64,000 nt of DNA. Source: a virus. Its lineage: Duplodnaviria > Heunggongvirae > Uroviricota > Caudoviricetes. The stretch covers positions 51,635-115,634 of the IMG/VR virus record IMGVR_UViG_3300037851_000307. One strand, given 5' to 3'. The position numbers were made by a program, and so were the translations under genes. Below are positions 40,050-63,923 of this stretch, in pieces (the first letter of the stretch is position 1; each line of letters starts with the position of its first letter). The notes under the pieces are model-generated. The model saw nothing but the letters and a program-made list of their open reading frames with translations. It did not search any database and was not told the origin of the DNA.

Positions 40050-40229
40050 TTATTTCGATTCGGTAATGTTGTTAAGATTTTTTCTAAGCTCAGATAGTGC
40101 GCAGCCAATACAGTAAACATTATGATCTTCACAAGCTGTAGAGATATTCTTAGCTGCTAGTTCTTTTTCAATACCAGCTATGTTAGCTTCTATCTTTTCT
40201 TTTGGGGTCATTTCAGAGTATTTTTTCAT
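40050..40229 (-). CDS. possible small ORF (59 aa, MKKYSEMTPKEK…)
   Basis: Open frame overlapping the annotated start of the downstream gene; no convincing SD. Confidence 0.25.
   Translation of the reverse strand: MKKYSEMTPKEKIEANIAGIEKELAAKNISTACEDHNVYCIGCALSELRKNLNNITESK
40055..40064 (-). promoter_or_regulatory. ACCGAATCGA motif instance
   Basis: 10 nt upstream of the ATG at 40045. Confidence 0.45.
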
Positions 40230-40242
40230 AAGTAAAATGGAG

Positions 40243-40317
40243 GCGGGAGATATTGCAGTATTCTAGACTACTGAACTCAGATCTAGTGGCCATAACTTAT
40301 CCACTAGAACTCCCGCC
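40243..40317 (-). ncRNA. structured element (nested hairpins closed by GGCGGGAG/CTCCCGCC) 3' of the Ro60 gene
   Basis: 8-bp outer stem enclosing the TCTAGTGG/CCACTAGA hairpin and a TTCTAGA…TCTAG repeat; could be a terminator or a small RNA. Confidence 0.4.
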
Positions 40318-40333
40318 ATGTAATAAAAAGAAA

Positions 40334-40432
40334 GCGACGCTCAATGGATTGTGAATCCATCGTTAACTACCTATTCTAGACTTTCTCCAGAACCCATAGC
40401 TCAGTTTTACGTGGCTAGTTAACCACCGTCGC
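40334..40432 (-). ncRNA. structured element: three hairpins enclosed by GCGACG/CGTCGC
   Basis: ATGGATT/AATCCAT and GTGG…CCAC hairpins inside a 6-bp closing stem; non-coding. Confidence 0.35.
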
Positions 40433-40459
40433 TGCAAACAAATGGCACGTACCAATTGT

Positions 40460-42070
40460 TTATAAGTTGCCTTTTGAGAACTCGGTCATGATTTGTGGAG
40501 TCGAAGTATCGAAACCAACAACATCAAGCATATTCTTATCAGAAGGATCTGCGATGGTGAAACCATTTGCGCAAGTTCCTACTGTGATAAGTTTAGCTTC
40601 AGGCACCGACATTCCAGAGCGATATTTGTTTAAAGCTTGGAAAGGGTGCATTGAGCCAGCATAAGTTTCATTATCAGTATAGATAGCAAACGTGTCGATA
40701 TGTAACTTTTGTGCTAAAGCCCATTGCATAGGCAACGAACAGTCTGTTCCACCCCATGGAGCTTTTTGCATTGTTTTCAACACATCATCTAAACGTTTAC
40801 GCTTAGAAAGATCAAGTCTGTCTATTCCTGATGAGCCGTAACCAGAAGACGAGAAGTATACAACTTCTGAATTAGGTTCAGCTTTTAAAGTAACCATTGC
40901 CATGGCTCCAGCAGCTTCTGCCGCCGTCAAACCTGTTCCAGCGATTCTTGCTCCAAACATAGAACCTGAGCAATCAAGCGCAAGAAGATGGTTTTTGCCA
41001 GAAGTTTCTACGTTTCCAAAGGAAGTATAGAAAGCTTCATCCAACGCATCTATGATGTTGGTTACTGGTGACCAAGTCAGCGACCCCTTATCGCCTCGCC
41101 CTTGCTTATAAATAGCAAGCGCGTTCAGGATAGTGATGGGGTGAACACGCGATCTCTTGATCTGTTCAGCGTTATTCAGACGCTCAACGACTAGCTTAGT
41201 GTTAGTATCTAGGTTTGATTTCAACAAACCTACAGCAGTCATCTTAGCTAGATTTCTTAAAGTTGCAGTCATAGGCATATTCTGATTAAGAGCTTCCCAT
41301 ACTTCTCTTGAGTTCAAGAGTTCAGTGGGAAGCGCTTCACGAGGTAGCCCATACTTTTGTATCAAAGCAACAGCTTGCTTAGTATCTCCAGCTCCAAGAG
41401 TTTGGATTTCTTCAAAACCTTGAACAAGCGCGTGCTTTGTGGTTACTTCTTTGCCGGCTGCATATCTTAATAAGTCGTTCAATGCTGCATCGTTAGATGA
41501 AGCATGGCAAAGACGTAACACATCGCGGTGAGTAAAGTTGTTTCTGTTGCGGTACTTGATGATGTTCATAGCAACTTTATCAATATCATTTTGAGTATAA
41601 AACTTTGCAACACCATTTCTTAGTCCACGAGACCAACCGCGTAATGCTTGGATATTCTCAGTGAACTGAAATAAATGAGTTCCGATTCTACATACATCGG
41701 TGATAGCTTTATATGCTGCATTCTTTGTGGCTTCATCGCCAAAAGTTGTTGCTAAAGCTAACGCAAAGATTGCAGGGTCATTTTTAGGTGCTCGACCAGC
41801 TACAGAGATTTCAACGATTGTTTTCACAGTTCGCAAACCATCTTGCTTGATGCAATCAATAACAGCTTGCGCGTTGTCTACTGTCATCTTTTTCTCTGAC
41901 GCGTAGTATGAACCACCTTCGTTACCTAAGATAAGAAATCGATTCAGTTTAGAGAAGCTGTCTTGAGCAAAAACAAAACCACCGGCATTATTTTTAACCT
42001 GATCTTTACCTGGAACTTGTTGTGTTTGAGGAGTTGTTTTTGTGTTGAAGTGCTTAGTATAAGACATACT
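40460..42070 (-). CDS. rsr: Ro60/TROVE-domain ribonucleoprotein orthologue (Rsr) with C-terminal vWA (MIDAS DCSGS)
   Basis: 'GGFVF…RFLILGNEGGSYY…DPAIFALALA' matches the Ro60 TROVE signature (RFL.LGSEGGTYY); C-terminal 'LALDCSGSM' vWA MIDAS. Start set at MSYTKHF, which has the SD 'aaaggagaaagtATG'. Confidence 0.85.
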   Translation of the reverse strand, partial: SMSYTKHFNTKTTPQTQQVPGKDQVKNNAGGFVFAQDSFSKLNRFLILGNEGGSYYASEKKMTVDNAQAVIDCIKQDGLRTVKTIVEISVAGRAPKNDPAIFALALATTFGDEATKNAAYKAITDVCRIGTHLFQFTENIQALRGWSRGLRNGVAKFYTQNDIDKVAMNIIKYRNRNNFTHRDVLRLCHASSNDAALNDLLRYAAGKEVTTKHALVQGFEEIQTLGAGDTKQAVALIQKYGLPREALPTELLNSREVWEALNQNMPMTATLRNLAKMTAVGLLKSNLDTNTKLVVERLNNAEQIKRSRVHPITILNALAIYKQGRGDKGSLTWSPVTNIIDALDEAFYTSFGNVETSGKNHLLALDCSGSMFGARIAGTGLTAAEAAGAMAMVTLKAEPNSEVVYFSSSGYGSSGIDRLDLSKRKRLDDVLKTMQKAPWGGTDCSLPMQWALAQKLHIDTFAIYTDNETYAGSMHPFQALNKYRSGMSVPEAKLITVGTCANGFTIADPSDKNMLDVVGFDTSTPQIMTEFSKGNL

Positions 42071-42145
42071 TTCTCCTTTAAAAATAGCGGATAAATTGAT
42101 GACCATGGGGTTTTCGCCAAATGATAACCCATAATCTACGACCCG
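42071..42145 (-). ncRNA. Y-RNA-like module 5 (begins CGGGTCGTAGATTATGGGTTATCA, ends TTATCCGC + T-run)
   Basis: Shares the 5' consensus YGGGTCGWWAGA..TTNGGTTAYCA and the 3' TTATCCRY-Tn with four other units. Confidence 0.4.
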
Positions 42146-42149
42146 CGTT

Positions 42150-42429
42150 GTAAAAATTTTTCGTATCGGTTACAGTAAAAAGCTGCACGGATAATGAAGC
42201 AGATATTGGAAGCATGCGTTATGGCATGGATGTGTTTTAAGAGACATCGTGCTCATCCTGACCATATTAGCAGGTCATTGTGCGACTCATGTGTTTAGCC
42301 TTAGATATGCTGCAACGGTTTCCGCCGCTACACGTTGCTACTAGACTGAGCTTCTCTATTTCAAGAGGGGGTTAACGCCTAGAGTGCAGTTCTTTATCAA
42401 GTGTTGGTAACCAATTATCTATCGACCCG
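42150..42429 (-). ncRNA. Y-RNA-like module 4 (about 280 nt, several internal hairpins)
   Basis: Starts CGGGTCGATAGATAATTGGTTACCA and ends TTATCCGTGCAGCTTTTT; includes a GCAAC…GTTGC hairpin, a TGACC…GGTCA hairpin and an ACCGATACGA motif near its 3' end. Confidence 0.4.
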
Positions 42430-42430
42430 T

Positions 42431-42575
42431 GCTTAAAAATAAACTGATGGATAAAAGTATCGACATTCGGAAGATGACTTTTGCTCTACCAGCTGAGCTA
42501 CTTCCGCTACGGTGCAGAAGGTGGGATTCGAACCCACGACCCAAAGTTTGTTGATAACCAAATATCTACGACCCA
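42431..42575 (-). ncRNA. Y-RNA-like module 3 with circularly permuted tRNA-like domain (YrlA-like)
   Basis: Reading the minus strand: ACTTT-GGGTC-GTGGG TTCGAAT CCCAC (T-arm) – CTTCTGC accgta GCGGAAG (acceptor-like stem closed by a loop) – TA – GCTC AGCTGGTA GAGC (D-arm) – A – AAAGT. The anticodon-stem equivalent ACTTT/AAAGT joins the domain to the rest of the RNA. Confidence 0.6.
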
Positions 42576-42661
42576 TCAAAAAACTAAATAAAAAATGCGG
42601 ATAAGCTGTATGACAATAGGGGGTAATCATTAACAGTGATAACCTAAAGTCTATCGACCCG
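42576..42661 (-). ncRNA. Y-RNA-like module 2 (short)
   Basis: CGGGTCGATAGACTTTAGGTTATCA … TTATCCGCATTTTTTATTT. Confidence 0.35.
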
Positions 42662-42793
42662 CAAAAACTAAAACTAAAAGAGACGGATAAGGGGTGAGAT
42701 TGGAGATTTGCCTCTTGGACCACCTTTGGCTGACGGAATCGAACCGCCCAGATTTTTGTTTCAGAAAAAAGGTAACCAATACTCTTCGACCCG
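42662..42793 (-). ncRNA. Y-RNA-like module 1 (contains T-arm-like GGCGG TTCGATT CCGTC)
   Basis: CGGGTCGAAGAGTATTGGTTACC … TTATCCGTCTCTTTTAG; starts 8 nt after the stop of 42802..43083. Confidence 0.4.
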
Positions 42794-42801
42794 TCAAAAT
42801 T

Positions 42802-43083
42802 CTATTCTACCACAAATCCTTGTTCTTTGGCTTCTTTAAGAGATAAAGAACCTTGGCGTTCACCTTGTCTACGAGTTCGCTCGTAGCCAATCTTGTCAAA
42901 CGCTACAAATCGACCTTCAGGAATAACTATCTTGTAGACAGTACCTTCTTGGTCTTGAAAGTAACCATTAACTCCGATTTCCTTAGCAACAGCTTCAGTT
43001 GCAGCCGCAAGTTCTTCAAAGAATTTCTTAACTTCTTCTTTGCGTTTCTCTAACGCAACGAATTTTTGTTGTGCTTCAGTCAT
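42802..43083 (-). CDS. hypothetical protein
   Basis: 93 aa. Confidence 0.5.
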   Translation of the reverse strand: MTEAQQKFVALEKRKEEVKKFFEELAAATEAVAKEIGVNGYFQDQEGTVYKIVIPEGRFVAFDKIGYERTRRQGERQGSLSLKEAKEQGFVVE

Positions 43084-43232
43084 TACATCATTCCCAGTTG
43101 TTTAAAGATTTCAGTGCCGATAAAGCCTATCAAGAAAGCTACTACGCAAGTGGTAAACAGGCTATACCCTTTGGTGTTGGCATATATACCCCAACCCATA
43201 CCAATAGCAAGTAATAAAATTAAAGTCATCAT
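43083..43232 (-). CDS. small hydrophobic protein (49 aa, not in ORF track)
   Basis: MMTLILLLAIGMGWGIYANTKGYSLFTTCVVAFLIGFIGTEIFKQLGMM; TAATG overlap with the next gene; ACCGATTCGA motif about 20 nt upstream. Confidence 0.35.
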   Translation of the reverse strand: MMTLILLLAIGMGWGIYANTKGYSLFTTCVVAFLIGFIGTEIFKQLGMM

Positions 43233-43252
43233 CTTAACCTCGTATCAAAAAA

Positions 43253-43262
43253 TCGAATCGGT
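43253..43262 (-). promoter_or_regulatory. ACCGATTCGA motif instance
   Basis: Upstream of the small ORF 43083..43232. Confidence 0.4.
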
Positions 43263-44550: not shown

Positions 44551-44581
44551 AATAAAAAAGGCCGTGGGGAACCCATCGGCC
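44551..44581 (-). terminator. rho-independent terminator (minus strand)
   Basis: GGCCGATGGGTTCCCCACGGCC + TTTTTTATT after the stop of 44599..44862. Confidence 0.65.
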
Positions 44582-44598
44582 TGACAGAAAGGAGGGAA

Positions 44599-44862
44599 CT
44601 ATTTATCATCCTGATGCTTATTTATCGATTCGGTTGAAGCACTTTGGTCTGTAAGTATTACAAGTTCTGCAAGCTGATTTTGAAGCTCTATATTTTGTTT
44701 ATTAAGGTCATATATTTCACTGGTTAATATGTTCCATATAACCTCTTGACGCGTATATCTTGCCTTAACACTTGCTTCGTCTGATCGCCCATCTTTGATG
44801 AGCTCAAGTATTAGCTCTACTTCTGGGTTAATAGATTCTAGTAAATCTTTAAGAGTTTTCAT
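44599..44862 (-). CDS. hypothetical protein
   Basis: 87 aa. Confidence 0.45.
   Translation of the reverse strand: MKTLKDLLESINPEVELILELIKDGRSDEASVKARYTRQEVIWNILTSEIYDLNKQNIELQNQLAELVILTDQSASTESINKHQDDK
44625..44634 (-). promoter_or_regulatory. ACCGAATCGA motif instance (inside the 3' end of 44599..44862)
   Basis: Upstream of 43865..44524. Confidence 0.35.
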
Positions 44863-46803: not shown

Positions 46804-46813
46804 TCGATTCGGT
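46804..46813 (-). promoter_or_regulatory. ACCGAATCGA motif instance
   Basis: About 20 nt upstream of the GTG/ATG of 45320..46780, after a hairpin plus T-run. Confidence 0.45.
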
Positions 46814-46825
46814 GCAGTATAAAGC

Positions 46826-46870
46826 CTCCTTTAGAAAAAATGCGGGCCTAGCAAAAGGAGGGACAAACTA
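46826..46870 (-). terminator. hairpin GCGGGC…GCCCGC + T-run (weak terminator)
   Basis: Downstream of the 46891..48033 stop. Confidence 0.4.
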
Positions 46871-46890
46871 AGCCCGCTGGGGGTGAACTA

Positions 46891-48073: not shown

Positions 48074-48083
48074 TCGATTCGGT
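48074..48083 (-). promoter_or_regulatory. ACCGAATCGA motif instance
   Basis: About 40 nt upstream of the 46891..48033 start. Confidence 0.45.
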
Positions 48084-54074: not shown

Positions 54075-54153
54075 TGGTTGCGGAGCCTGGAGTCGCACCA
54101 AGTACACCTTCTAGCTTATGAAACTAGTGAGCCGCAGTTGCTCGATCCCCGCA
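54075..54153 (-). tRNA. tRNA-Met-like (anticodon CAT), atypical 3-nt 8-10 connector and T-loop TGCGACT
   Basis: Acceptor TGCGGGG/CTCCGCA with A-CCA; D-arm GAGC-AACTGCG-GCTC; anticodon arm CTAGT-TTCATAA-GCTAG. Confidence 0.5.
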
Positions 54154-54177
54154 CGTTATAGTTATAAATCGAATCTG

Positions 54178-54858
54178 TTAAAACGGAATGTCTTCATCGT
54201 CGTCTTTGTCGATGTACTCGTTTTTGGTCAGTGTGGTTTTTAGTACTATTGTACCATCGTCTTGTTTTTCAGCTGATAGAATTTTTTCTTTTTCTACAAC
54301 AGTTCCACCAGCTTTTTTGATTAGCATGTCAACAAGGTTATTTTTGACATGCTGCTGTACAACCTTATTCATTTCTTCTTTTAGCATGGTTTCAATTAAG
54401 CGAGACACGGTATGACTATCGATGCACCGCTTAACTTGATTCCTAATATTTGCCTGTATAGCTTCTCTGATCTTTCGTTGTTCCTCAGGGTTGCCAATGA
54501 ACGTTTCTGGCGCTAACTGATTAGCTATAATGAACTCTTTTAGAGGTTGGCCGATCAAACCGTCCATAACTGATCCAGTTTTAATCTCCCAATCGCTCCA
54601 TTTTGTTTCAAAGCCTAAAGCAGACCATACGATCTTTTTCATATTCTGCGAAGCTTCTTTTAAGACATTTGCTTTAGTGTCCTCTAACATAGCTTCAAAC
54701 GAAATATTTCTCATTGACTCAAGATCTACATTTAAAACAACGGCATCCGCTACATCATCATCTGATACTGGAATAAGCTTTAAAGTACCCCAATCTTCTT
54801 TGATTTCGTAAAGTTTGTTCTCGAATTTTGCTAATTTTGCCTTTGGATCTAAAGCCAT
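54178..54858 (-). CDS. hypothetical protein ending in SSB-like acidic tip (…DKDDDEDIPF)
   Basis: C-terminal DDDEDIPF copies the bacterial SSB C-terminal tip (DDDIPF); start moved to MALDPK, which has the SD GGGGGTAAT. Confidence 0.55.
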   Translation of the reverse strand: MALDPKAKLAKFENKLYEIKEDWGTLKLIPVSDDDVADAVVLNVDLESMRNISFEAMLEDTKANVLKEASQNMKKIVWSALGFETKWSDWEIKTGSVMDGLIGQPLKEFIIANQLAPETFIGNPEEQRKIREAIQANIRNQVKRCIDSHTVSRLIETMLKEEMNKVVQQHVKNNLVDMLIKKAGGTVVEKEKILSAEKQDDGTIVLKTTLTKNEYIDKDDDEDIPF

Positions 54859-54879
54859 ATTACCCCCGATATACACTCA

Positions 54880-54889
54880 TCGAATCGGT
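54880..54889 (-). promoter_or_regulatory. ACCGATTCGA motif instance (preceded by CTTTTTAC)
   Basis: About 20 nt upstream of the 54178..54858 start. Confidence 0.45.
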
Positions 54890-54900
54890 AAAGTAAAAAG

Positions 54901-54975
54901 TGGCGTAGCACCTAGGAGTCGAACCTAGATTTCATGGTTTTGGAGGCCAGACGAATGCCGTTATCTTAGTGCTAC
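54901..54975 (-). tRNA. tRNA-like element (canonical acceptor/T-arm/CCA but no foldable anticodon arm); possible pseudo-tRNA
   Basis: GTAGCAC…CTAGG TTCGACT CCTAG GTGCTAC G CCA; the middle region will not form a 5-bp/7-nt anticodon arm. Confidence 0.35.
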
Positions 54976-54977
54976 AT

Positions 54978-55049
54978 GGCGCGGATAAGGGAATCGAACC
55001 CCTGACATTCGGTAGACAGCCGAAGGTTTTGCCACTAAACTATATCTGC
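54978..55049 (-). tRNA. tRNA-Asp (anticodon GTC)
   Basis: D-arm GTTT-AGTGGCA-AAAC; anticodon arm TTCGG-CTGTCTA-CCGAA; T-arm AGGGG-TTCGATT-CCCTT. Confidence 0.75.
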
Positions 55050-55050
55050 G

Positions 55051-55126
55051 TGGGGTGATTGACGGGAGTCTAACCCAGTACCTTCGCTTTCACAGAGCGA
55101 CGTGCAGACCTTACACTACAACCACC
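55051..55126 (-). tRNA. tRNA-His (anticodon GTG) with G-1
   Basis: Extra 5' G pairing with discriminator C; anticodon arm TCGCT-CTGTGAA-AGCGA; 3' CCA. Confidence 0.75.
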
Positions 55127-55143
55127 ATATAAAAATCAACTTT

Positions 55144-55222
55144 AATGTTCCATATCCAGATGGGGATATTAAACATTAGTCAAAAACTTTTATGTTTAAT
55201 CCCGACGGGGGAAATTAAACAT
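55144..55222 (-). repeat. two tandem similar hairpins (AATGTT…GGGGATATTAAACATT and ATGTTTAATCCCGACGGGGGAAATTAAACAT) inside the tRNA cluster
   Basis: Imperfect direct repeat of hairpin-forming units, each followed by a T-rich run on the minus strand. Confidence 0.5.
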
Positions 55223-55236
55223 AAGTAAATAAAACT

Positions 55237-55311
55237 TGGTGCCCAATGGAAGATTCGAACTCCCCAAACCGCGTTACAAAGGCGGCGTTATTCCCACTTA
55301 ACTAATCGGGC
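55237..55311 (-). tRNA. tRNA-Thr (anticodon TGT)
   Basis: Acceptor GCCCGAT/ATTGGGC; D-arm GTTA-AGTGGGAA-TAAC; anticodon loop TTTGTAA; T-arm GGGAG-TTCGAAT-CTTCC; A-CCA. Confidence 0.75.
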
Positions 55312-55312
55312 A

Positions 55313-55404
55313 TGGTCTCACGGGCAGGACTCGAACCTACATTTTGCGCCAATCTAGCGCGTCTGGTGTATAAGGCCAGGGTTTTGCCATTAAACTACCG
55401 TGAG
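55313..55404 (-). tRNA. class-II-like tRNA (92 nt, 22-nt variable hairpin) with apparent anticodon TAT in loop CTTATAC; identity unresolved
   Basis: Acceptor CTCACGG/CCGTGAG; D-arm GTTT-AATGGCA-AAAC; anticodon stem CTGG(C)/(A)CCAG; variable arm GCGC-TAGATTG-GCGC; T-arm GTAGG-TTCGAGT-CCTGC; A-CCA. Confidence 0.5.
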
Positions 55405-55474
55405 TGGTTGCGGACAGGGTAGTTGCAACCCTTATATTAGGCTTATGAGACCCATATAGCGACTTGCGCCCGCA
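55405..55474 (-). tRNA. tRNA-Met/Ile2-like (anticodon CAT) with reduced D-arm
   Basis: Anticodon arm TGGGT-CTCATAA-GCCTA; T-arm AGGGT-TGCAACT-ACCCT; acceptor TGCGGGC/GTCCGCA; only 70 nt. Confidence 0.45.
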
Positions 55475-55490
55475 ATCGTACTTAAAATTT

Positions 55491-55565
55491 TGGTAGACGA
55501 TATAGGAGCTGCACCTATGACCTTCGCTTTGTAAGAGCGCTGCTCTACTGCTGAGCTAATCGTCT
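55491..55565 (-). tRNA. tRNA-Val (anticodon TAC)
   Basis: Acceptor AGACGAT/ATCGTCT; D-arm GCTC-AGCAGTA-GAGC; anticodon loop CTTACAA; T-loop TGCAGCT; A-CCA. Its 5' end overlaps the stop of 55545..56093. Confidence 0.7.
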
Positions 55566-56093
55566 ATGATTCATTACTGCTTTAATTGCTTCTATCCATT
55601 CTTCATGTGAAAAATTATCTGCTCTAGATATGTTGCATTTTCCACAACACGGAACTACATTTTCTAATGTATATCCATATGAATTATTTTTTCTATCTAA
55701 ATTATGACCAGTTTCTTGGCATAAAGAAGAATTGCAATAAAAACATTCTTTTATTAAATTTTTATAGCTATCAAAGTCTATACTCCATTCTAAACTTCTT
55801 TCATTGGCTTTTCTTTGACCATATTTAAATCTATTAAATAGATCAGTTCTATTGATGAAACTTTTATTCTTAGCTTCTTCTCTTTGCCAATAAATATTTC
55901 GTTTCCAGCTATTTTTGCACTCCCTACATGACGAATATCTTCCGTCTTTTGTTGTTTTGCTTTTCGCAAATTTATCTAAATCTTTTTCAATCTTACATTT
56001 ACTACATATTTTGGTACACATAATCCTTTTATACCAAGATAAAAATGGTACCTGGTGCTGGATTCGAACCAACCTTACTCGCCTATCAAGCAA
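55545..56093 (-). CDS. HNH endonuclease inside the tRNA cluster
   Basis: 'GHNLDRKNNSYGYTLENVVPCCGKCN' plus Cys clusters; paralog of 37238..37684. Confidence 0.7.
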   Translation of the reverse strand: MLDRRVRLVRIQHQVPFLSWYKRIMCTKICSKCKIEKDLDKFAKSKTTKDGRYSSCRECKNSWKRNIYWQREEAKNKSFINRTDLFNRFKYGQRKANERSLEWSIDFDSYKNLIKECFYCNSSLCQETGHNLDRKNNSYGYTLENVVPCCGKCNISRADNFSHEEWIEAIKAVMNHRRLAQQ

Positions 56094-56119
56094 GCTTTCT
56101 TCCTACTGAAATAACCAGG
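56045..56119 (-). tRNA. tRNA-Ile (anticodon GAT)
   Basis: D-arm TTTC-AGTAGGAA-GAAA; anticodon arm CTTGC-TTGATAG-GCGAG; T-arm GTTGG-TTCGAAT-CCAGC; A-CCA. Confidence 0.75.
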
Positions 56120-56120
56120 C

Positions 56121-56197
56121 ATGGTCTGCAAGGTCAGAATCGAACTGACTTCCCCTCGGTTCCAAACCGAGAAAGCACCCATATGCTCCTCTCGCAG
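56121..56197 (-). tRNA. tRNA-Pro (anticodon TGG)
   Basis: Anticodon arm CTCGG-TTTGGAA-CCGAG (perfect); T-arm GTCAG-TTCGATT-CTGAC; A-CCA. Confidence 0.8.
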
Positions 56198-56210
56198 ATA
56201 AACTAAAATT

Positions 56211-56287
56211 TGGTACCGGTGAAAGGAATTGAACCTTCAAACACTTGATTCTAAGTCAAGCTGCTTTGCCTGTTTGCATACACCGGC
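56211..56287 (-). tRNA. tRNA with anticodon TAG (Leu by anticodon) but class-I architecture (5-nt variable loop)
   Basis: Anticodon arm CTTGA-CTTAGAA-TCAAG (perfect); T-arm GAAGG-TTCAATT-CCTTT; acceptor GCCGGTG/CACCGGT; A-CCA. Confidence 0.6.
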
Positions 56288-56303
56288 ACGTTAAAACTAA
56301 AAT

Positions 56304-56380
56304 TGGAGCGCGTAGTCGGATTCGAACCGACACTCCATGATTGGAAGTCACGTATGCTAGCCGTTGAACATTACACGCGC
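56304..56380 (-). tRNA. tRNA-Gly (anticodon TCC)
   Basis: Anticodon arm CGTGA-CTTCCAA-TCATG; T-arm GTCGG-TTCGAAT-CCGAC; T-CCA. Confidence 0.75.
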
Positions 56381-56382
56381 AC

Positions 56383-56458
56383 TGGATAGGGATGCTGGAT
56401 TTGAACCAGCGTCATGAGGGTCAAAGCCTCAGGTCCTAGGCCACTAGACGAATCCCCA
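56383..56458 (-). tRNA. tRNA-Gln (anticodon TTG)
   Basis: D-arm GTCT-AGTGGCCTA-GGAC; anticodon arm TGAGG-CTTTGAC-CCTCA; T-arm GCTGG-TTCAAAT-CCAGC; T-CCA. Confidence 0.75.
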
Positions 56459-57281: not shown

Positions 57282-57483
57282 TGTCTGCATGGTCATCTAC
57301 TATCTTTTTCCAGTTTCTGTTAAGAAGACCAACCAACCACATTCTTTGTCCTTTTGACGTCATGTAAAGACTGTCATCGTGTATCCAACGAACTTCATAT
57401 TCGCTATATGTACCTTCATGATAACCAGGTATATGGCGTATGAACTTTATATATAGATATGGACTCCAATCATATTCTTCCAT
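57262..57483 (-). CDS. small protein ending -KIILGG
   Basis: 73 aa. Confidence 0.45.
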   Translation of the reverse strand: MEEYDWSPYLYIKFIRHIPGYHEGTYSEYEVRWIHDDSLYMTSKGQRMWLVGLLNRNWKKIVDDHADKIILGG

Positions 57484-57860
57484 TACTCTTCCAACAAAAT
57501 TTTATCGATTCGGTCGATTTTTTCTTGAGCTCTTCTTTCCATAATATCAAACATTTTATCTACATTGTCGCTTTTTAATGCTTTGCGCCCCCAATGGCAT
57601 TTCATAACAATTGCTTTTTCTTCTTTATCAACTAGATAGTACCTATATTCAGAGCGATGAGCATCATACATCTCAATATGCTTACCATTGACAGTACATA
57701 TGCCTCGCTTACCATAAGAGACGCATATCATTTGGTAATAATCGTTTTCTGCAAAAACAGAAGCATGCTTATGGTTTTTAAACCTTTGAATTGCAAAATT
57801 ATCTTCATCAACAACGTTTAATGTCCAAAAACTAGTTATTGTGTTGTTATCAACGCTCAT
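57483..57860 (-). CDS. hypothetical protein
   Basis: 125 aa. Confidence 0.45.
   Translation of the reverse strand: MSVDNNTITSFWTLNVVDEDNFAIQRFKNHKHASVFAENDYYQMICVSYGKRGICTVNGKHIEMYDAHRSEYRYYLVDKEEKAIVMKCHWGRKALKSDNVDKMFDIMERRAQEKIDRIDKILLEE
57505..57514 (-). promoter_or_regulatory. ACCGAATCGA motif instance
   Basis: About 25 nt upstream of the 57262..57483 start. Confidence 0.4.
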
Positions 57861-58902: not shown

Positions 58903-58938
58903 TTTAACCGACCCGTATGAAAAAACAATAATTTTTTA

Positions 58939-58966
58939 TACTTTTTACTCGAATCGGTAAAAAGTA
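58939..58966. promoter_or_regulatory. palindromic element TACTTTTTAC-TCGAATCGG-TAAAAAGTA containing the ACCGATTCGA core, followed by TGGTATACT
   Basis: Inverted repeat around the motif core; could act bidirectionally (minus gene 58684..58902 and plus-strand tRNA cluster). Confidence 0.4.
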
Positions 58967-59068
58967 TGGTATACTAGAGGATATATGACAAACGCAATCT
59001 ACAACCTATTCGAATCTAAATCGAAACGCTACGAGCGTAAGGTGTGCGTTTGTGTCTTTACGTAATCG

Positions 59069-59090
59069 AAACGCACACCAAGTCTTTTCA
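59069..59090 (+). other. long hairpin GGTGTGCGTTT…AAACGCACACC upstream of the plus-strand tRNA cluster
   Basis: 11-bp inverted repeat. Coordinates are approximate: the element spans about 59,040 to 59,095. Confidence 0.35.
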
Positions 59091-59124: not shown

Positions 59125-59202
59125 TGATGCGTGGTGTTTAATGGCAAGCATTTCTGGCTCTTAACCAGTAGGGTATAGGTTCGAATCCTATCGCATCAAC
59201 CA
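59125..59202 (+). tRNA. tRNA-Lys (anticodon CTT)
   Basis: Acceptor TGATGCG/CGCATCA; D-arm GTGT-(10-nt loop)-GCAT; anticodon loop CTCTTAA; T-arm ATAGG-TTCGAAT-CCTAT; A-CCA. Confidence 0.7.
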
Positions 59203-59208
59203 ATTTAT

Positions 59209-59285
59209 TGGCTCATGGTGTTTAACGGTAGCATTCTAGACTTTTAATCTACGGGGTCTCGGTTCGAATCCGAGTGGGCCAACCA
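59209..59285 (+). tRNA. tRNA-Lys (anticodon TTT)
   Basis: Paralog of the previous tRNA; anticodon loop CTTTTAA; T-arm CTCGG-TTCGAAT-CCGAG; A-CCA. Confidence 0.7.
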
Positions 59286-59297
59286 TTTTATGTTTAG

Positions 59298-59372
59298 GGC
59301 GTCATCGACTACTGGCTAGGTCACCAAGCTTTCACCTTGGAGAAGCGGGATCGATACCCGCTGACGCCTCCA
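59298..59372 (+). tRNA. tRNA-Glu (anticodon TTC)
   Basis: Acceptor GGCGTCA/TGACGCC; D-arm GACT-ACTGGCTA-GGTC; anticodon arm CCAAG-CTTTCAC-CTTGG (perfect); T-arm GCGGG-ATCGATA-CCCGC; T-CCA. Confidence 0.75.
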
Positions 59373-60322: not shown

Positions 60323-60537
60323 AAGTCGCCAACCAATATTATCCTATCTACCAAATCATTTTCAAAGTTTCGTTTCATGCGGGCATATTTTTGAGGGTTT
60401 TTGCGACTAGTAACTTTTATTCTCGCTGCACAACTCTTAGAGCACGAACGTGACCAGCCTCTCTTTAAATCTGCAGTTCTAGCTTTAAACAAACCACAGC
60501 AAGCTATGCATCTTATCTCAATGATCTTACCTCTCAT
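60319..60537 (-). CDS. small basic Cys-rich protein ending -RIILVGDL
   Basis: 72 aa. Confidence 0.4.
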   Translation of the reverse strand: MRGKIIEIRCIACCGLFKARTADLKRGWSRSCSKSCAARIKVTSRKNPQKYARMKRNFENDLVDRIILVGDL

Positions 60538-60866
60538 AGAGGTATATACCCATGCTTGATTGTTTCGCTTATTTCTTTAACATCGTCAAACACTCTGTGG
60601 GGCTTGCACATAGCAAAATCTACTTCTTTTTCTAAGCCAAGAGCTTTTACTACTTTTTCTGCCCACTCGTGACCAGATGCAGACCAAACCACAACTGTCC
60701 AGCCTAACGTATTGTAATCTTTAATTTTTTGAACATGCTTAGTGTGAACTTGAAACACACGATCGTTGATGGTTACTTCTGGTAAAGTTCTATCAACTTT
60801 ATACCACATTATTAAAGTATCATCACAGTCGAAAAAAGCAACTCTATCTGATTTAATCGTTACCAC
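60534..60866 (-). CDS. HAD-like small phosphatase
   Basis: Motif I 'AFFDCDDTL'; 'VVVWSASG' motif II-like. Confidence 0.45.
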   Translation of the reverse strand: MVTIKSDRVAFFDCDDTLIMWYKVDRTLPEVTINDRVFQVHTKHVQKIKDYNTLGWTVVVWSASGHEWAEKVVKALGLEKEVDFAMCKPHRVFDDVKEISETIKHGYIPL

Positions 60867-61092
60867 TTTCGCCCCCTAAGATAATTACATCTACTTGGTT
60901 TTTTATTGATTTTGCCATATAATCACATATAGCAACACAAAACGTATAATCTTTGCTGCGTGCCTCAACTATAAAATTTCTTGAACTTTTACAGAGTATT
61001 CTATATTCTTTGTTGCCGCTTGAACCACGACCTTGAAGTTCATAGAACTCATTTTCAAAAGCTTTATACCACCGACTGGTAGCTCTACCCAT
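60853..61092 (-). CDS. small protein ending -VIILGGESGND
   Basis: 79 aa. Confidence 0.4.
   Translation of the reverse strand: MGRATSRWYKAFENEFYELQGRGSSGNKEYRILCKSSRNFIVEARSKDYTFCVAICDYMAKSIKNQVDVIILGGESGND
60864..60888 (-). promoter_or_regulatory. gene-junction motif (instance)
   Basis: TAATTATCTTAGGGGGCGAAAGTG. Confidence 0.4.
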
Positions 61093-61288
61093 TTTCTACA
61101 CCTAAGATAATCTCTTCAATCTCTTGCTCTTCAAATCTCTTGTGGTCTTTGAGCCAAACTTCTGCAGCTTCTTCACAAGAAAAACCAGGAGTTATTTGAT
61201 CACCGTTCTCAAATACAACCCAGCCTTGCTCATGTCTGCACCAGTTTATCTCAAAGCGATTCATTAGTAATCGCCCTTTTCTATGCAA
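61085..61288 (-). CDS. small protein ending -EIILGVENG
   Basis: 67 aa. Confidence 0.4.
   Translation of the reverse strand: MHRKGRLLMNRFEINWCRHEQGWVVFENGDQITPGFSCEEAAEVWLKDHKRFEEQEIEEIILGVENG
61090..61113 (-). promoter_or_regulatory. gene-junction motif (instance)
   Basis: AGATTATCTTAGGTGTAGAAAATG. Confidence 0.45.
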
Positions 61289-61488
61289 GCAGAAAGCTTT
61301 TTAGCATAATCAAACTGATCACCGTCTGTTACGCATTTAACTAATTTTTGATGGCATTGTTTGTTTGCGTCTTTGACTTCTTTGTAAACAGCAGTCGTAT
61401 TTGAAGGATTAGTTTGGCAGAACACTGCGATTGCTAATAGTATGTTTGCTAACATTATTTCTCCAATAAAGAAGCTAAGTGGTTCCAC
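61264..61488 (-). CDS. small secreted Cys-containing protein
   Basis: Signal-peptide-like 'IMLANILLAIAVFCQT'. Confidence 0.4.
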   Translation of the reverse strand: MEPLSFFIGEIMLANILLAIAVFCQTNPSNTTAVYKEVKDANKQCHQKLVKCVTDGDQFDYAKKLSACIEKGDY

Positions 61489-61943
61489 ATATCTTCGTGT
61501 TGACCAGGAGTGTAAAGTGCTTCTTTAAAACCTTCCCACTCTTTTTTATACATTTTAAATCTTGAATCTCTGTAGCGAATACATGCCTCCACATTCGCTA
61601 TCCTGTCTGCGAGCTTCAATATGATAGCGTTTGGAGTAGTTTTGATCTTATGATAAGTAGCAGCATGGCGCGCTGCTCTGTTTACGCCAGCTTCGTTTGT
61701 TACGGCGTAAACTAAAGCAGCAACACCATCACCAAAATCAGACTTTATTTGATCTATTGTTGTAGGGGTATCTTCTACTACATCGTGTAGCCACGCTGCA
61801 ATAATTAGCTCTTCTTGAGTAAACCCAAATCGACGCAAAACTTTCTCTACATCATATAGATGCTCTGTGTAACCACCAGAACCGTAGCTCTGGCTTTTGT
61901 GTGCCTCAGATGCGAAAAGTTTTGCATGCTCCAATGTGCTCAT
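61455..61943 (-). CDS. HD-domain (p)ppGpp hydrolase-like protein (small alarmone hydrolase family)
   Basis: 'AHKSQ…GGYTEHLY…AAWLHDVVEDT…LKLADRIANV' matches the RelA/SpoT HD hydrolase motifs. Confidence 0.65.
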   Translation of the reverse strand: MSTLEHAKLFASEAHKSQSYGSGGYTEHLYDVEKVLRRFGFTQEELIIAAWLHDVVEDTPTTIDQIKSDFGDGVAALVYAVTNEAGVNRAARHAATYHKIKTTPNAIILKLADRIANVEACIRYRDSRFKMYKKEWEGFKEALYTPGQHEDMWNHLASLLEK

Positions 61944-62227
61944 ATGCTATAGATAGGTTTTCTTTTAAAGACTTTTGGTAGTTGTTTCTTTTCACGTATG
62001 TCAGGAAACTTCCTACGCCTATCTTCCTTTTTCTTAAGTTTGTGATTTGCGTCCATCTCTTTACAGAGATGATCAAAGACTTGCACTTTCTTCATGTTGA
62101 AGTCTGTGTCAGTGAGTTGATCGCGCACGATTGCACCACCCATACACCCTACGTAAAAGTCAGATGGTTCCGTAGTGGCGCAAGAAGTAAATGCTGTTAA
62201 CATTAAAAGTATTAACAGCTTTTTCAT
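61940..62227 (-). CDS. lipoprotein
   Basis: 'LLMLTAFTSC' lipobox. Confidence 0.45.
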   Translation of the reverse strand: MKKLLILLMLTAFTSCATTEPSDFYVGCMGGAIVRDQLTDTDFNMKKVQVFDHLCKEMDANHKLKKKEDRRRKFPDIREKKQLPKVFKRKPIYSI

Positions 62228-62425
62228 TACTTATCGTCTTTCTTTTGAGTTGCTTCTTTGTAAGCTTTTACACAAAGCATCACGATAAGAACCGTACAAG
62301 CGATGATTAAAGATGATAGTGCTACAGTTACTAATACTGGCATATTTCCTCCTGTTTATACAACCTAAGTTGTATTGTACTTTCGTACAAATTTATGGGG
62401 TTGCATTGCGCAACCCCTAAGTGGC

Positions 62426-63622
62426 TTACTTCTTTTTAGGGTCAGCCATCTCTTTAGATAGATCATGGAAGGCTTTTAAGCCGATAACATCGAAAGGATT
62501 AAGTGCGCCATGGTTACCACCGCCACCACCGATGATCATCGTAGATGGAAGTTGTACCTTAGCGAGTTGCTCAGCGACACCGATCGCAGTATCTTTCTCG
62601 ATAGTAGCGCGTTCAAGAGGTGTAAGACCAGCTTGAACCTTTAAGCGGTTGATTTCAGCGAGAGCTTTACCTTTTACAATATCAGCTGCAGCTTCCTCTT
62701 TAGCTTTTTGGGCGTTAAGTTTAGCAACCTCAAACTCTTTCTGAGCGATAGTAACCTCTTTGATTTTTTCAACCTCTTGGTTAGCTTTTTCCTCAGCGAT
62801 ACGCGCAGCACCTTGTTCACGTGCAGTAATAGCATCTTGCTTAGCTTTTTCTGCGTTAGCTCGAGCTACGACCTTTTGCTGTTCAGCTTCTTTCTTTTTA
62901 GCGATGAGTGCGTCGATAGTTTGATCAAAGTCGATGTCTTTAATCACGAACTGAATAACCTCAATACCGTACTGCTTAAGAGGAGATTCTTTTCTGATGA
63001 CAGGTTGACCTTTTTCATCTTTTTTAACGTTAACTTCCGCTACGATAAACTCATTACCGTCTGCATCTTTCTCTTTAAACTCTTTAGAAGCTGTTTCAAA
63101 GATACCCAAGATGACTTGATCTTCGGCAATATCTGTGAACTCAGAGCGTCGCGTAGAGTATGAGTCTTCAGCTCGCATTAGAGGTGCAGTTTGCATGAGC
63201 GCTTCTGTGACCACTTGGCGCATCAAGGCATGCTTGATAGCTTCAAATGATTTAAAGTCACGATGTAGTGCTAAGCGTTTATTAGGATCTGTAGGCATTC
63301 TGAACTTAATCATTCCTGAGATCTCTGCAGTACCACCGTCGTTGAACCTCACTTTGATCGCGTCAGATAGACTGTCACCTTCTCCCTCTGTTTTTGAGAA
63401 GTAATACTCATCAGAGATTTTATAGGTGGTGATTCCACCAAACATCTGAAAGTATGTACCGGGGTCACCGATTACCACCATCTCACCGGACATGGCTGTC
63501 TGCTTGATCTGATAATAACCTGCGTCGTTCGTTTCTAACACATATTTACTGGTGGTAACGACTGTCACCAATAAAATAATGCCAGCAATAATAGCCAGCG
63601 GTCCTCTTAAAATACCGTTCAT
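62426..63622 (-). CDS. SPFH/band-7 family membrane protein
   Basis: N-terminal TM helix, SPFH-like core, long Ala/Lys/Glu coiled coil (AKKKEAEQQKVVARANAEKAKQDAITAREQ…). Confidence 0.55.
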   Translation of the reverse strand: MNGILRGPLAIIAGIILLVTVVTTSKYVLETNDAGYYQIKQTAMSGEMVVIGDPGTYFQMFGGITTYKISDEYYFSKTEGEGDSLSDAIKVRFNDGGTAEISGMIKFRMPTDPNKRLALHRDFKSFEAIKHALMRQVVTEALMQTAPLMRAEDSYSTRRSEFTDIAEDQVILGIFETASKEFKEKDADGNEFIVAEVNVKKDEKGQPVIRKESPLKQYGIEVIQFVIKDIDFDQTIDALIAKKKEAEQQKVVARANAEKAKQDAITAREQGAARIAEEKANQEVEKIKEVTIAQKEFEVAKLNAQKAKEEAAADIVKGKALAEINRLKVQAGLTPLERATIEKDTAIGVAEQLAKVQLPSTMIIGGGGGNHGALNPFDVIGLKAFHDLSKEMADPKKK

Positions 63623-63665
63623 CTATCCTCCTTATTAAAGGGTTTGGTTTTTGTTTCGTGTAACT

Positions 63666-63923
63666 TCATCGATTCGGTGCAGTATCCCAAGCGCCATACT
63701 TGTCAACAAGCTCTTTACAGAGAGTCTCAGCAGGTTCTTTACCTAAAAGGGCGTCACTTGTTTCAGGAATTAAAGCTCCTTGTTCTAAGAGTGTTACTTG
63801 AGTTTTTACTGCACCATAGACGCAGGACTGAAAAGAAAGCTCTTTTAGTTGTTCTGCAGTCGGTCCTACGTTTCTTGTGCAGCCCACTGCGAACAGCAGG
63901 CTACATATTAGTAAGTATTTCAT
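63666..63923 (-). CDS. lipoprotein
   Basis: 'LLFAVGC' lipobox. Confidence 0.4.
   Translation of the reverse strand: MKYLLICSLLFAVGCTRNVGPTAEQLKELSFQSCVYGAVKTQVTLLEQGALIPETSDALLGKEPAETLCKELVDKYGAWDTAPNR
63669..63678 (-). promoter_or_regulatory. ACCGAATCGA motif instance
   Basis: About 45 nt upstream of the 62426..63622 start. Confidence 0.4.

What the first reader, a model, noticed from the sequence alone, without database searches (positions are those of the whole stretch)
40055..63678. Recurrent 10-nt motif ACCGA(A/T)TCGA upstream of minus-strand genes: candidate phage-specific promoter or processing site
At least ten instances occur on one strand between 40 and 64 kb (plus coordinates 40055, 43253, 44625, 46804, 48074, 54880, 57505, 58949, 63669, and the variant ACCGATACGA at 42161). 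Each lies 10 to 45 nt upstream of a minus-strand start codon and several follow terminator hairpins. Three copies are extended by CTTTTTAC (54880, 58949, 42161); the 58939..58966 copy is a perfect inverted repeat. None were noticed in the plus-strand structural block. Ten copies in 24 kb is far above chance for a 10-mer. The motif is not a sigma-70 hexamer.
Basis: seen in the sequence. Interest (0 to 1): 0.6.

Follow-up and report, generated by a model that had tools for sequence, protein, structure and literature searches.

The report
Phage-specific promoter motif, uncultured myovirus
A 10-base word repeated in front of a dozen genes of an uncultured large phage is most likely a second, phage-specific class of promoter. 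This is an ordinary kind of feature in phages, but the sequence is new and the protein that reads it has not been identified.

Summary
ACCGAWTCGA occurs 9 times (0.07 expected), always on the minus strand, between 40 and 64 kb. Three one-mismatch copies (42161, 36768, 54169) sit in the same kind of place.

Eleven of the 12 sites lie 9-46 nt upstream of a same-strand gene or RNA start. These include a tRNA and a Y-RNA-like hairpin. One site follows a strong intrinsic terminator.

Related uncultured phages carry variants of the same word at matching positions (CCGAAACKA, CTGAAACTA, AAACCGATTA+TATAAA). The clade consensus is W-C-Y-G-A-W-W-C-K-A, then an A/T-rich stretch, then a pyrimidine-purine step 10 nt after the word. 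There is no -35 element.

A second class of promoter-like sites, tGnTATAAT (often leaderless), fronts the replication and structural genes.

Best reading: a single-element promoter close to the -10 position, with a predicted start 10 nt downstream of the word. It would be read by host RNA polymerase plus an unidentified phage specificity factor. A small sigma-like protein (1279-1734) is a weak candidate.

An RNA-processing site, an operator and a methylation site are less likely.

Novelty: a new member of a known kind. Interest is moderate.

The parts
63669..63678 (-). Class A motif ACCGAATCGA, 46 nt upstream of the SPFH/Band7 gene ATG (63622). Predicted start 63659.
   Evidence: SPFH annotation
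58949..58958 (-). Class A motif ACCGATTCGA, 46 nt upstream of the ATG of a 72-aa ORF (58902). It sits inside an 11-nt-arm inverted repeat (58938-58967). Predicted start 58939.
57505..57514 (-). Class A motif ACCGAATCGA, 21 nt upstream of the ATG at 57483. The Shine-Dalgarno (SD) sequence begins 12 nt after the motif. Predicted start 57495.
54880..54889 (-). Class A motif ACCGATTCGA, 11 nt after tRNA-Trp and 21 nt upstream of the ATG at 54858 (226-aa ORF). Predicted start 54870.
54169..54178 (-). Variant ACAGATTCGA. Its first base is the last base of the upstream stop codon. It lies 15 nt upstream of tRNA-Met (54153). Predicted start 54159.
48074..48083 (-). Class A motif ACCGAATCGA, directly after the stop codon of the upstream ORF and 40 nt upstream of the MoxR-like ATPase GTG (48033). 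Predicted start 48064.
   Evidence: matching site in relatives
46804..46813 (-). Class A motif ACCGAATCGA, 23 nt upstream of the VWA/DUF2201 gene GTG (46780). Predicted start 46794.
46832..46878 (-). Intrinsic-terminator hairpin (11-bp stem, loop UUUGUCCCUCCUUUUG, then AUUUUUU), about 20 nt upstream of the 46804 motif.
   Evidence: dG -19.9 kcal/mol, z -3.1
44625..44634 (-). Class A motif ACCGAATCGA, followed by about 60 nt that end in a hairpin plus U-run (about 44552-44583). This may be a short RNA. Predicted start 44615.
43253..43262 (-). Class A motif ACCGATTCGA. Its first base is the last base of the upstream stop codon. It lies 20 nt upstream of the ATG at 43232 (49-aa membrane ORF). Predicted start 43243.
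42161..42170 (-). Variant ACCGATACGA. The predicted start 42151 lies 5 nt before the closing stem of a Y-RNA/sbRNA-like hairpin (42084-42150), which is followed by a U-run, an SD sequence and the Ro60 gene.
40055..40064 (-). Class A motif ACCGAATCGA, 9 nt upstream of the ATG at 40045 with no SD sequence. The predicted start 40045 is the A of that ATG, so the mRNA may be leaderless.
36768..36777 (-). Variant ACAGATTCGA. Its first base is the last base of the upstream stop codon. It lies 23 nt upstream of the ATG at 36744. Predicted start 36758.
59004..59013 (+). Plus-strand near-copy ACCTATTCGA, 111 nt upstream of the plus-strand tRNA-Lys/Lys/Glu trio. Whether it is functional is uncertain.
1279..1734 (+). 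Weak candidate reader of the motif: a 152-aa sigma-factor-like protein (P0001) encoded just upstream of the terminase genes. Nothing links it to the motif directly.

Best explanation
The motif is the core of a phage-specific promoter class (class A) in an uncultured large myovirus. The conserved word, W-C-Y-G-A-W-W-C-K-A across the clade and ACCGAWTCGA in this phage, sits at about -19 to -10. An A/T-rich stretch follows.

Transcription is predicted to start at a pyrimidine-purine step whose purine is the 10th base after the word. In window coordinates this is the motif start minus 10, on the minus strand. There is no -35 element.

The last two bases (K-A) may act as positions -12 and -11 of a weak -10 hexamer. 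The upstream CYGAWWC would then take the place that TGn holds in the genome's other promoter class, tGnTATAAT (class B).

Class A drives about a dozen units of the minus-strand auxiliary block: SPFH, small ORFs, a tRNA, MoxR ATPase, VWA, a Y-RNA-like RNA with Ro60, and others.

Shown: the motif statistics, its position and orientation, its variants at matching positions in relatives, and the downstream Y-R signal. Inferred: that it is a promoter, where transcription starts, and who reads it.

The sigma-like protein at 1279-1734 is a possible candidate, at about 0.25.
For: - Statistics: 9 exact copies against 0.07 expected, all on one strand. It is the top over-represented 8-mer of the block.
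- Position: 11 of 12 sites lie 9-46 nt upstream of a same-strand start. Only about 5% of strand positions are within 60 nt upstream of a called start.
- SD spacing: the Shine-Dalgarno (SD) sequence begins 11-12 nt after the motif at five sites. Any start must therefore lie within about 11 nt of the motif, which rules out a -35 role.
- Non-coding targets: two sites precede a tRNA and a Y-RNA-like hairpin. That hairpin's stem begins 5 nt after the predicted start and it ends in a U-run.
- Leaderless case: at 40055 the predicted start is the A of an ATG that has no SD. The spacing matches the class B pattern of TATAAT, 5-6 nt, then ATG.
- Terminators: one lies directly upstream of a site here and two do so in L003.
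- Relatives carry variants at matching positions. Before the MoxR ATPase: window ACCGAATCGA, L003 AAAACCGATTATATAAA, L005 AACCGATCCGAT, L001 TTCTGAAAC. Before SPFH: L100 TTCCGAAACTA, L012 ATCTGAAACTA.
- A 43-site clade alignment shows conserved positions -1 to +9 relative to the first C of the core, pyrimidine 36/43 then purine 39/43 at +17/+18, and nothing conserved from -30 to -7.
- A separate class B (tGnTATAAT) fronts replication and structural genes here and in relatives.
- Sigma-70-type two-hexamer sites are at chance level in the block.
Against: - There are no transcript data, so the start site and even initiation itself are inferred.
- No RNA polymerase, sigma or activator gene could be tied to the motif. 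The window covers only 64 kb of what is probably a 115.6-kb genome (the length of the longest contig on record for P0001).
- The closest relatives by SPFH identity (77-79%; L010, L011, L085) show no recognisable copy of the motif.
- The -10-like hexamer after the word is weak in this phage (GAWNNN).
- An alternative geometry also fits several sites: the word as an upstream box, TAY 8 nt downstream as a -10, and leaderless mRNAs.
- The 43 sites in relatives were picked partly by eye.
Confidence: 0.72

Rival explanations
1. RNA processing site. Long minus-strand transcripts are cut at or near ACCGAWUCGA by a phage or host endoribonuclease. This would create mRNA, tRNA and Y-RNA 5' ends just upstream of each gene.
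For: The motif occurs on the sense strand only and just upstream of genes. It also precedes tRNA and Y-RNA-like genes, which are normally matured by processing. The phage encodes RNA-handling proteins: Ro60, polynucleotide kinase and a tRNA array.
Against: A strong intrinsic terminator sits about 20 nt upstream of the 46804 copy, and terminators directly precede two copies in L003. Little transcript would therefore reach those sites. A conserved Y-R step at a fixed 10 nt downstream, with an A/T-rich stretch between, is the anatomy of a start site rather than a cleavage site. No endoribonuclease with 9-10-nt linear sequence specificity is known to me (from memory).
Confidence: 0.1
2. Operator. 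The word is the binding site of a phage repressor or timing regulator that overlaps ordinary host-type promoters, rather than being the promoter itself.
For: In this phage the core CGAWTCG is a 7-bp palindrome, and one copy sits in a longer perfect inverted repeat. -10-like hexamers can be found near several copies.
Against: The palindrome is not conserved in relatives (CTGAAACTA, CCGAAACKA). All copies share one orientation relative to the gene. Nearby -10-like hexamers lie at variable distances (0-14 nt), and there is no -35. Two-hexamer sigma-70 sites are at chance level.
Confidence: 0.08
3. A DNA-level signal unrelated to transcription. Candidates are a methylation or restriction target (the word contains GANTC and TCGA), strand-specific nick sites as in T5-like phages, or a recombination or packaging signal.
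For: The word contains GAWTC, a subset of the CcrM/HinfI site GANTC, and TCGA. Its strict strand bias resembles nick sites or Chi-like sites.
Against: GANTC and TCGA as such are neither enriched nor depleted in the window (210 against 192 expected; 140 against 136). GANTC is lost in relatives' variants, which read GAAAC. Such signals have no reason to sit 9-46 nt upstream of starts with a fixed spacing to the SD sequence. No methyltransferase or GcrA domain was found among the ORFs scanned.
Confidence: 0.04

Closest known systems
T4 late promoters (TATAAATA at about -13 to -6, read by the small sigma gp55 with gp33 and the sliding clamp; from memory)
   Same: A single short element close to the -10 position, with no -35. 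It sits immediately upstream of phage genes and differs from the host consensus. In AT-rich relative L003 the word is followed by TATAAATA itself. The clade consensus after the word is (T/G)ATAAAT.
   Different: The conserved information lies in the 7-8 bp upstream of that hexamer (CYGAWWC), not in the hexamer. In this window only 1-2 of 12 sites read GATAAA(T/A). No gp55 or gp33 homologue was identified.
Bacillus phage SPO1 middle and late promoters, read by phage sigmas gp28 and gp33/34 (consensus AGGAGA-N17-TTTNTTT and CGTTAGA-N18-GATATT; from memory)
   Same: The phage is a distant relative of SPO1-like myoviruses (capsid protein about 30% identical). It has a second promoter class beside host-type promoters, a sigma-like gene, and genes typical of hydroxymethyl-uracil DNA synthesis.
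   Different: The sequences are unrelated. SPO1 promoters are bipartite with a -35 element, whereas here nothing is conserved from -30 to -7.
Extended -10 promoters (TGnTATAAT) of housekeeping sigma factors
   Same: The architecture is the same: a short element directly upstream of the -10 hexamer that makes a -35 unnecessary. The genome's own class B is of this type.
   Different: The extension is CYGAWWC instead of TG. The hexamer is degenerate, with G often at the first position.
Sigma-28 (FliA / SigD / WhiG) promoters, TAAA-N15-GCCGATAA (from memory)
   Same: The core CCGA(T/A)(A/T) matches six consecutive bases of the sigma-28 -10 element.
   Different: The next base is C in 37/43 sites where sigma-28 has A. 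No TAAA or any other -35 signal is present. No FliA-like gene was seen.
T7-type single-subunit RNA polymerase promoters
   Same: A highly conserved, lineage-specific word that drifts between related phages. An A/T-rich stretch separates it from a purine start.
   Different: Only 10-11 nt are conserved, against 17-23 for T7-type promoters, and conservation does not run through +1. No such polymerase is encoded in the window. The only ORF above 700 aa is a tail fibre.

Membership tests
Housekeeping sigma-70/sigma-A two-hexamer promoter | -35 element (TTGACA-like) 16-18 bp upstream of the -10 hexamer | tested here: not met
   No position from -30 to -7 relative to the core exceeds 0.3 bits in 43 sites or in the 12 window sites. 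The generic two-hexamer scan is at chance level.
Housekeeping sigma-70/sigma-A two-hexamer promoter | -10 hexamer TATAAT with A at position 2 and T at position 6 | tested here: inconclusive
   The hexamer that starts with the last two motif bases reads K-A-T-w-w-A across the clade. A at position 2 is present in 40/43 sites, but position 6 is mostly A. In the window it reads GAWNNN.
Extended -10 promoter (TGnTATAAT) | TG at -15/-14 | tested here: not met
   Class A has W-W-C at those positions. The genome's class B sites do have tGn.
Sigma-28 / FliA / WhiG promoter | -10 element GCCGATAA | tested here: not met
   CCGAWW matches, but the following base is C in 37/43 sites, not A, and the first base is W, not G.
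Sigma-28 / FliA / WhiG promoter | -35 element TAAA about 15 bp upstream | tested here: not met
   No conservation at the corresponding positions.
ECF sigma promoter | -35 (G)GAAC/TGAAAC and -10 CGT-like element 16-17 bp apart | tested here: not met
   Relatives' TGAAAC resembles an ECF -35. However, the SD or start codon lies 11-14 nt after it, and no CGT element follows at 16-17 nt.
T4-type late promoter | TATAAATA centred near -10 with no -35 | tested here: inconclusive
   There is no -35. TATAAATA follows the word in L003. In the window only 44625 (GATAAATA) and 57505 (GATAAAAT) come close.
T4-type late promoter | gp55-like sigma and gp33-like co-activator encoded by the phage | not tested
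   No family hit of that name was seen in the PHROGs or Pfam scans of window ORFs. About 51 kb of the genome lies outside the window.
T7-type single-subunit RNA polymerase promoter | Phage-encoded single-subunit polymerase (about 800-900 aa) | tested here: not met
   No such ORF in the window. ORFs above 600 aa are terminase, portal and tail fibre. None is annotated in the neighbouring loci L007-L009. The rest of the genome was not seen.
T7-type single-subunit RNA polymerase promoter | 17-23 bp conserved block running through +1 | tested here: not met
   Only about 11 positions are conserved. Positions between the word and the Y-R step are only A/T-biased.
CcrM/GcrA methylation-dependent promoters (GANTC, YGAKTCK; from memory) | GANTC within the element, conserved | tested here: not met
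   Present in the window copies (GAWTC), but replaced by GAAAC in L012, L001 and L100. GANTC is not otherwise unusual. No GcrA or methyltransferase domain was found.
Sigma factor (for the candidate reader P0001) | Sigma region 2 and region 4 folds | tested here: inconclusive
   [not shown]
RinA/ArpU/LtrC late activators encoded upstream of terS (PMC3152322) | Small protein encoded immediately upstream of terS; sequence membership in the family | tested here: inconclusive
   Position and size fit: about 135 aa, just upstream of the putative terS and terL, conserved in relatives. No RinA/ArpU model matched in NCBIfam at E<=1.

The most novel reading that the evidence does not exclude
The clade of uncultured large myoviruses to which this phage belongs uses a previously undescribed promoter architecture. 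A 7-8-bp element (CYGAWWC) abuts a degenerate -10 hexamer and there is no -35. It would be read through a small phage-encoded sigma-like protein of the P0001 family. That protein's recognition helix and the promoter word drift together between lineages (ACCGAWTCGA, TTCCGAAACKA, TTCTGAAACTA, AAACCGATTA). This would form a natural series of orthogonal promoter/factor pairs that separates an auxiliary-gene programme (Ro60/Y RNAs, tRNAs, MoxR-VWA) from host-type tGnTATAAT transcription of replication and structural genes.
Probability: 0.2. Interest if true: 0.65.

Novelty: new member of a known kind. Interest (0 to 1): 0.4.

Why it matters
Phage-specific promoter classes are the main handle on the timing of gene expression in phages that cannot be cultured. 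This one divides the genome into two programmes. Host-type tGnTATAAT promoters, often leaderless, front the replication and structural genes. A separate word fronts the auxiliary block with Ro60 and its Y-RNA-like genes, tRNAs and the MoxR-VWA pair.

It gives eleven or twelve precise predictions of transcript 5' ends that a metatranscriptome or an in vitro assay could test.

As it stands, this is a well-supported but unsurprising feature.

Tried and rejected
- Literature search for the two 10-mers returned only primers and unrelated text.
- No nucleotide-level relative exists in INPHARED. The closest cultured phages are at about 30% protein identity: SPO1-like for the capsid and Myxococcus phage Mx1 for the terminase.
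- CcrM/GcrA methylated-GANTC idea: rejected. GANTC and the CGAWTCG palindrome are lost in relatives, and GANTC counts are ordinary.
- Sigma-28 -10 resemblance: fails at position 7 and has no TAAA.
- ECF-type bipartite reading of TGAAAC: fails because the SD or start codon is too close.
- The motif as a -35 element: rejected. The SD begins 11-12 nt after it.
- Hairpin (N4-like) promoter: only one copy sits in an inverted repeat.
- Search for a sigma, RNA polymerase or GcrA domain among 37 small ORFs of the block: nothing apart from a weak SutA RNA-polymerase-binding-domain hit, E=0.004, whose member was not identified.
- Recovering the rest of the source genome failed. An exact look-up of P0001 was not on record. 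The SPFH look-up returned only a 30-kb Logan contig that ends 474 nt beyond the window. The single metagenome scan found relatives at up to 79% identity but not the source contig.
- My own expectation-maximisation motif finder failed its positive control and was dropped.
- The degenerate clade pattern is not enriched around the P0001/terS genes of 39 relatives. There is therefore no sign that P0001 acts on a class A site next to itself.
- The generic promoter and terminator scans were uninformative.


Full report
**What the window is.** The 64-kb window is part of a large uncultured tailed phage. It has no nucleotide-level relative among 50,697 deposited phage genomes. Its capsid protein is about 30% identical to those of SPO1-like Bacillus myoviruses. 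Its terminase is closest (29%) to that of Myxococcus phage Mx1.

Bases 1-33 kb form a plus-strand block. It holds an SbcD-like nuclease, a small sigma-like protein, terminase, portal, capsid and tail genes.

Bases 33-64 kb form a minus-strand block of auxiliary genes. It holds:
- a UDG-superfamily protein, dCMP deaminase and a thymidylate-synthase-like enzyme;
- a Ro60/TROVE protein;
- a MoxR-like ATPase with a VWA/DUF2201 partner;
- polynucleotide kinase and an SPFH protein;
- 12 minus-strand tRNAs and many small ORFs.

A 152-aa product of the window is on record in a JGI data set, with a longest contig of 115,634 bp. About 51 kb of the genome is therefore probably unseen.

**The observation.** ACCGAWTCGA occurs 9 times. 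Dinucleotide-preserving shuffles give a mean of 0.07 and never more than 1.

With one mismatch there are 16 hits against 3.3 expected, and none lies below 36 kb. CCGAATCG is the most over-represented 8-mer of the block (6 against 0.08). Every CGAWTCG core in the window belongs to the motif.

Besides the variant at 42161, two more one-mismatch copies (ACAGATTCGA at 36768 and 54169) sit in the same kind of context. A plus-strand near-copy (59004) lies 111 nt upstream of three plus-strand tRNAs.

**Anatomy in the window.** Eleven of the 12 good sites lie 9-46 nt upstream of a same-strand start. Positions within 60 nt upstream of a called start make up about 5% of all strand positions.

The motif often abuts the stop codon of the upstream gene or overlaps its last codons. 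It is never deep inside a gene.

At five sites the Shine-Dalgarno (SD) sequence begins exactly 11-12 nt after the motif (43253, 46804, 54880, 57505, 36768). If the motif is a promoter, the start must lie within about 11 nt of it. The motif therefore cannot be a -35 element.

Two sites precede non-coding genes, which excludes a translational operator:
- Site 54169 lies 15 nt before tRNA-Met.
- Site 42161 lies 10 nt before a 65-75-nt stem-bulge hairpin that ends in a U-run. That hairpin gives sub-threshold Rfam hits to Y-RNA-type families. An SD sequence and the probable true Ro60 start at 42067 follow it.

Site 46804 lies about 20 nt downstream of a strong intrinsic terminator (dG -19.9 kcal/mol, z -3.1, then a T-run).

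**A second promoter class.** Intergenic regions of the plus-strand block, and a few in the minus block, carry tGnTATAAT or GTATAAT. Often exactly 5-6 nt separate this from the ATG, and there is no SD (for example 8561, 13376, 4212, 25868, 44537, 58101). This points to leaderless mRNAs from extended -10 promoters of the host housekeeping type.

The same class fronts replication and structural genes in relatives. The genome therefore has two promoter-like classes, and the motif under study (class A) is confined to the auxiliary block. At 40055 the ATG has no SD and lies 9 nt after the motif. If the hexamer is taken to start at the motif's last two bases (GAAATA, 5 nt, ATG), the spacing equals that of the class B leaderless genes.

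**Relatives.** Loci were fetched through three proteins: the MoxR ATPase, the SPFH protein and the sigma-like protein. The exact 10-mer is rare outside the window.

Several relatives nevertheless carry clear variants on the sense strand, upstream of genes and with the same spacing to the SD or ATG:
- L003: TTAAAACCGATTATATAAA, six copies, two directly after terminators.
- L005: AACCGATCCGAT and ACCGAWTCGA.
- L100: TTCCGAAAC(G/T)A, CTGAAACGA and CCGAATCGA.
- L012 and L001: (A/T)TTCTGAAACTA. CTGAAACT occurs 8 times in L012 against 0.5 expected.

The variants occupy matching positions in front of the MoxR ATPase and SPFH genes. More distant relatives use other signals in this block, including canonical CTTGACAA-N17-TATAAT-like promoters in L040 and GTTACTAT-N15-TATATTAT in L028. 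The closest relatives by SPFH identity (L010, L011, L085) show no recognisable copy. This remains unexplained.

**Clade consensus.** I aligned 43 sites on the C-Y-G-A core. The result is:
- W, C, Y, G, A, W, W;
- C in 37/43 sites, K in 40/43, A in 40/43, t;
- an A-rich stretch;
- a pyrimidine (36/43) followed by a purine (39/43) at +17/+18 from the first C, so the purine is the 10th base after the word.

Nothing is conserved between -30 and -7. This is the anatomy of a single-element promoter close to the -10 position with a Y-R start site. In window coordinates the predicted start is the motif start minus 10. At 42161 this falls 5 nt before the Y-RNA-like stem. At 40055 it falls on the A of the ATG. 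The sites in relatives were chosen partly by eye, but not on the downstream positions.

**Who reads it.** This is not established. No RNA polymerase, sigma, GcrA or methyltransferase domain appears among the ORFs of the block.

The window does encode a 152-aa protein (1279-1734, P0001), conserved at 41-66% identity in eight homologues. In relatives it always lies between an SbcD-like gene and the terminase genes. The evidence on its fold is mixed:
- The AlphaFold model has pLDDT 79.
- Foldseek ranks ECF sigmas first, with weak E-values.
- A PDB profile search gives sigma-H region 4 at E=0.042.
- No curated sequence family claims it.

By position and size it also resembles the RinA/ArpU late activators encoded upstream of terS (PMC3152322), but no such model matched. 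Its predicted recognition helix differs between lineages that carry different motif variants. That is anecdotal. The clade pattern is not enriched next to its own gene in 39 relatives. I treat it as a candidate at about 0.25.

**Alternatives.** An RNA-processing site fits the sense-strand position and the tRNA and Y-RNA contexts. It is disfavoured by the terminators directly upstream and by the start-site-like downstream signal.

An operator for a dimeric regulator is disfavoured because the palindrome is specific to this phage, the orientation is fixed, and no regular host-type promoter accompanies the word.

A methylation, restriction or nicking signal is disfavoured because GANTC is lost in relatives and is statistically ordinary here.

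Resemblances to sigma-28, ECF, T4-late and T7-type promoters were each checked feature by feature. None is met in full.

**Verdict.** This is a new sequence member of a familiar kind of feature, found in an unstudied phage clade, with a testable start-site prediction and an unidentified reader. Interest is moderate.

Noticed in passing
window 40133-42800, minus strand: The Ro60/TROVE gene (40460-42067/42106) is flanked by a cluster of probable Y-RNA-like genes. Five copies of GGGTCGWAGA-N4-5-KGGTTAYC(A) start near 42797, 42660, 42573, 42430 and 42145. There is a YrlA-like tRNA-like module at 42479-42545 (35.8 bits, E=3e-5, below the gathering score of 69) and an sbRNA-like hairpin at 42084-42150 (34.3 bits against 38). 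Two more stem-plus-T-run elements lie at 40133-40459. The 96-aa ORF at 42433-42723 is probably spurious.
   Followed up: partly
window, e.g. 8561, 13376, 4212, 25868 (+); 44537, 58101 (-); also L007 and L010: Many genes have tGnTATAAT/GTATAAT exactly 5-6 nt before the ATG and no Shine-Dalgarno sequence. This points to frequent leaderless mRNAs from extended -10 promoters without a -35. The pattern is conserved in relatives and may hint at the host group.
   Followed up: partly
[not shown]
   Followed up: yes
window 46832-46878 and 44552-44600 (-); L001 3463-3542, L003 6017-6142, L005 11150-11215: The hairpin directly after the MoxR ATPase gene has a loop containing CCCUCCUUU. This resembles the 16S rRNA 3' end and is complementary to the AGGAGGG Shine-Dalgarno of the next gene. 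Relatives keep a hairpin with a CCUCC-type loop at the same place. A second UCCCUCCUUUCU lies in the roughly 60-nt stretch between the 44625 motif and a terminator, which could be a small RNA with an exposed anti-SD-like sequence.
   Followed up: partly
window 32981-34099 and 37681-38442 (-): A UDG-superfamily protein, dCMP deaminase and a divergent thymidylate-synthase homologue (Pfam E=2.5e-10) occur together. This gene set is typical of phages that replace thymine, for example with hydroxymethyl-uracil as in SPO1. The DNA may therefore be modified.
   Followed up: no
window 54075-56458 (-) and 59125-59372 (+): There is a tRNA array of 12 minus-strand genes, plus a trio (Lys, Lys, Glu) on the opposite strand inserted in the minus-strand block. 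tRNA-Ile(tat) is 92 nt long. tRNA-Met at 54075-54153 was called by ARAGORN only, not by Rfam at gathering score.
   Followed up: no
window 59020-59080: Between the 58949 motif and the plus-strand tRNAs lie an 11-bp perfect inverted repeat (GGTGTGCGTTT / AAACGCACACC, 17 nt apart) and a direct repeat AATCGAAACGC. A similar GTGTGCG...CGCACACC element occurs at the matching place in L010. Function unknown.
   Followed up: no
L028-L030, L094, L109 (relatives, GC 30%): Seven copies of (A)GTTACTAT, 15-16 nt, TATATTAT lie upstream of genes. This is a bipartite promoter-like motif with a non-canonical upstream box in the same gene block. L040 uses canonical CTTGACAA-N17-TATAAT-like sites and L021 uses GCATCATAA-type repeats.
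   Followed up: partly
window 30764-63923, one of 37 small ORFs: One small ORF gives a weak Pfam hit to the SutA RNA-polymerase-binding domain (E=0.004). Which ORF it is was not determined.
   Followed up: no
window 46804-46821 and 63669-63686 (-): Two motif copies share an 18-nt identical stretch, ATACTGCACCGAATCGAT. Three others are preceded by CTTTTTAC. An AC(T/A) triplet 2-5 nt upstream is common. This may be a weak upstream extension or a trace of recent duplication.
   Followed up: no
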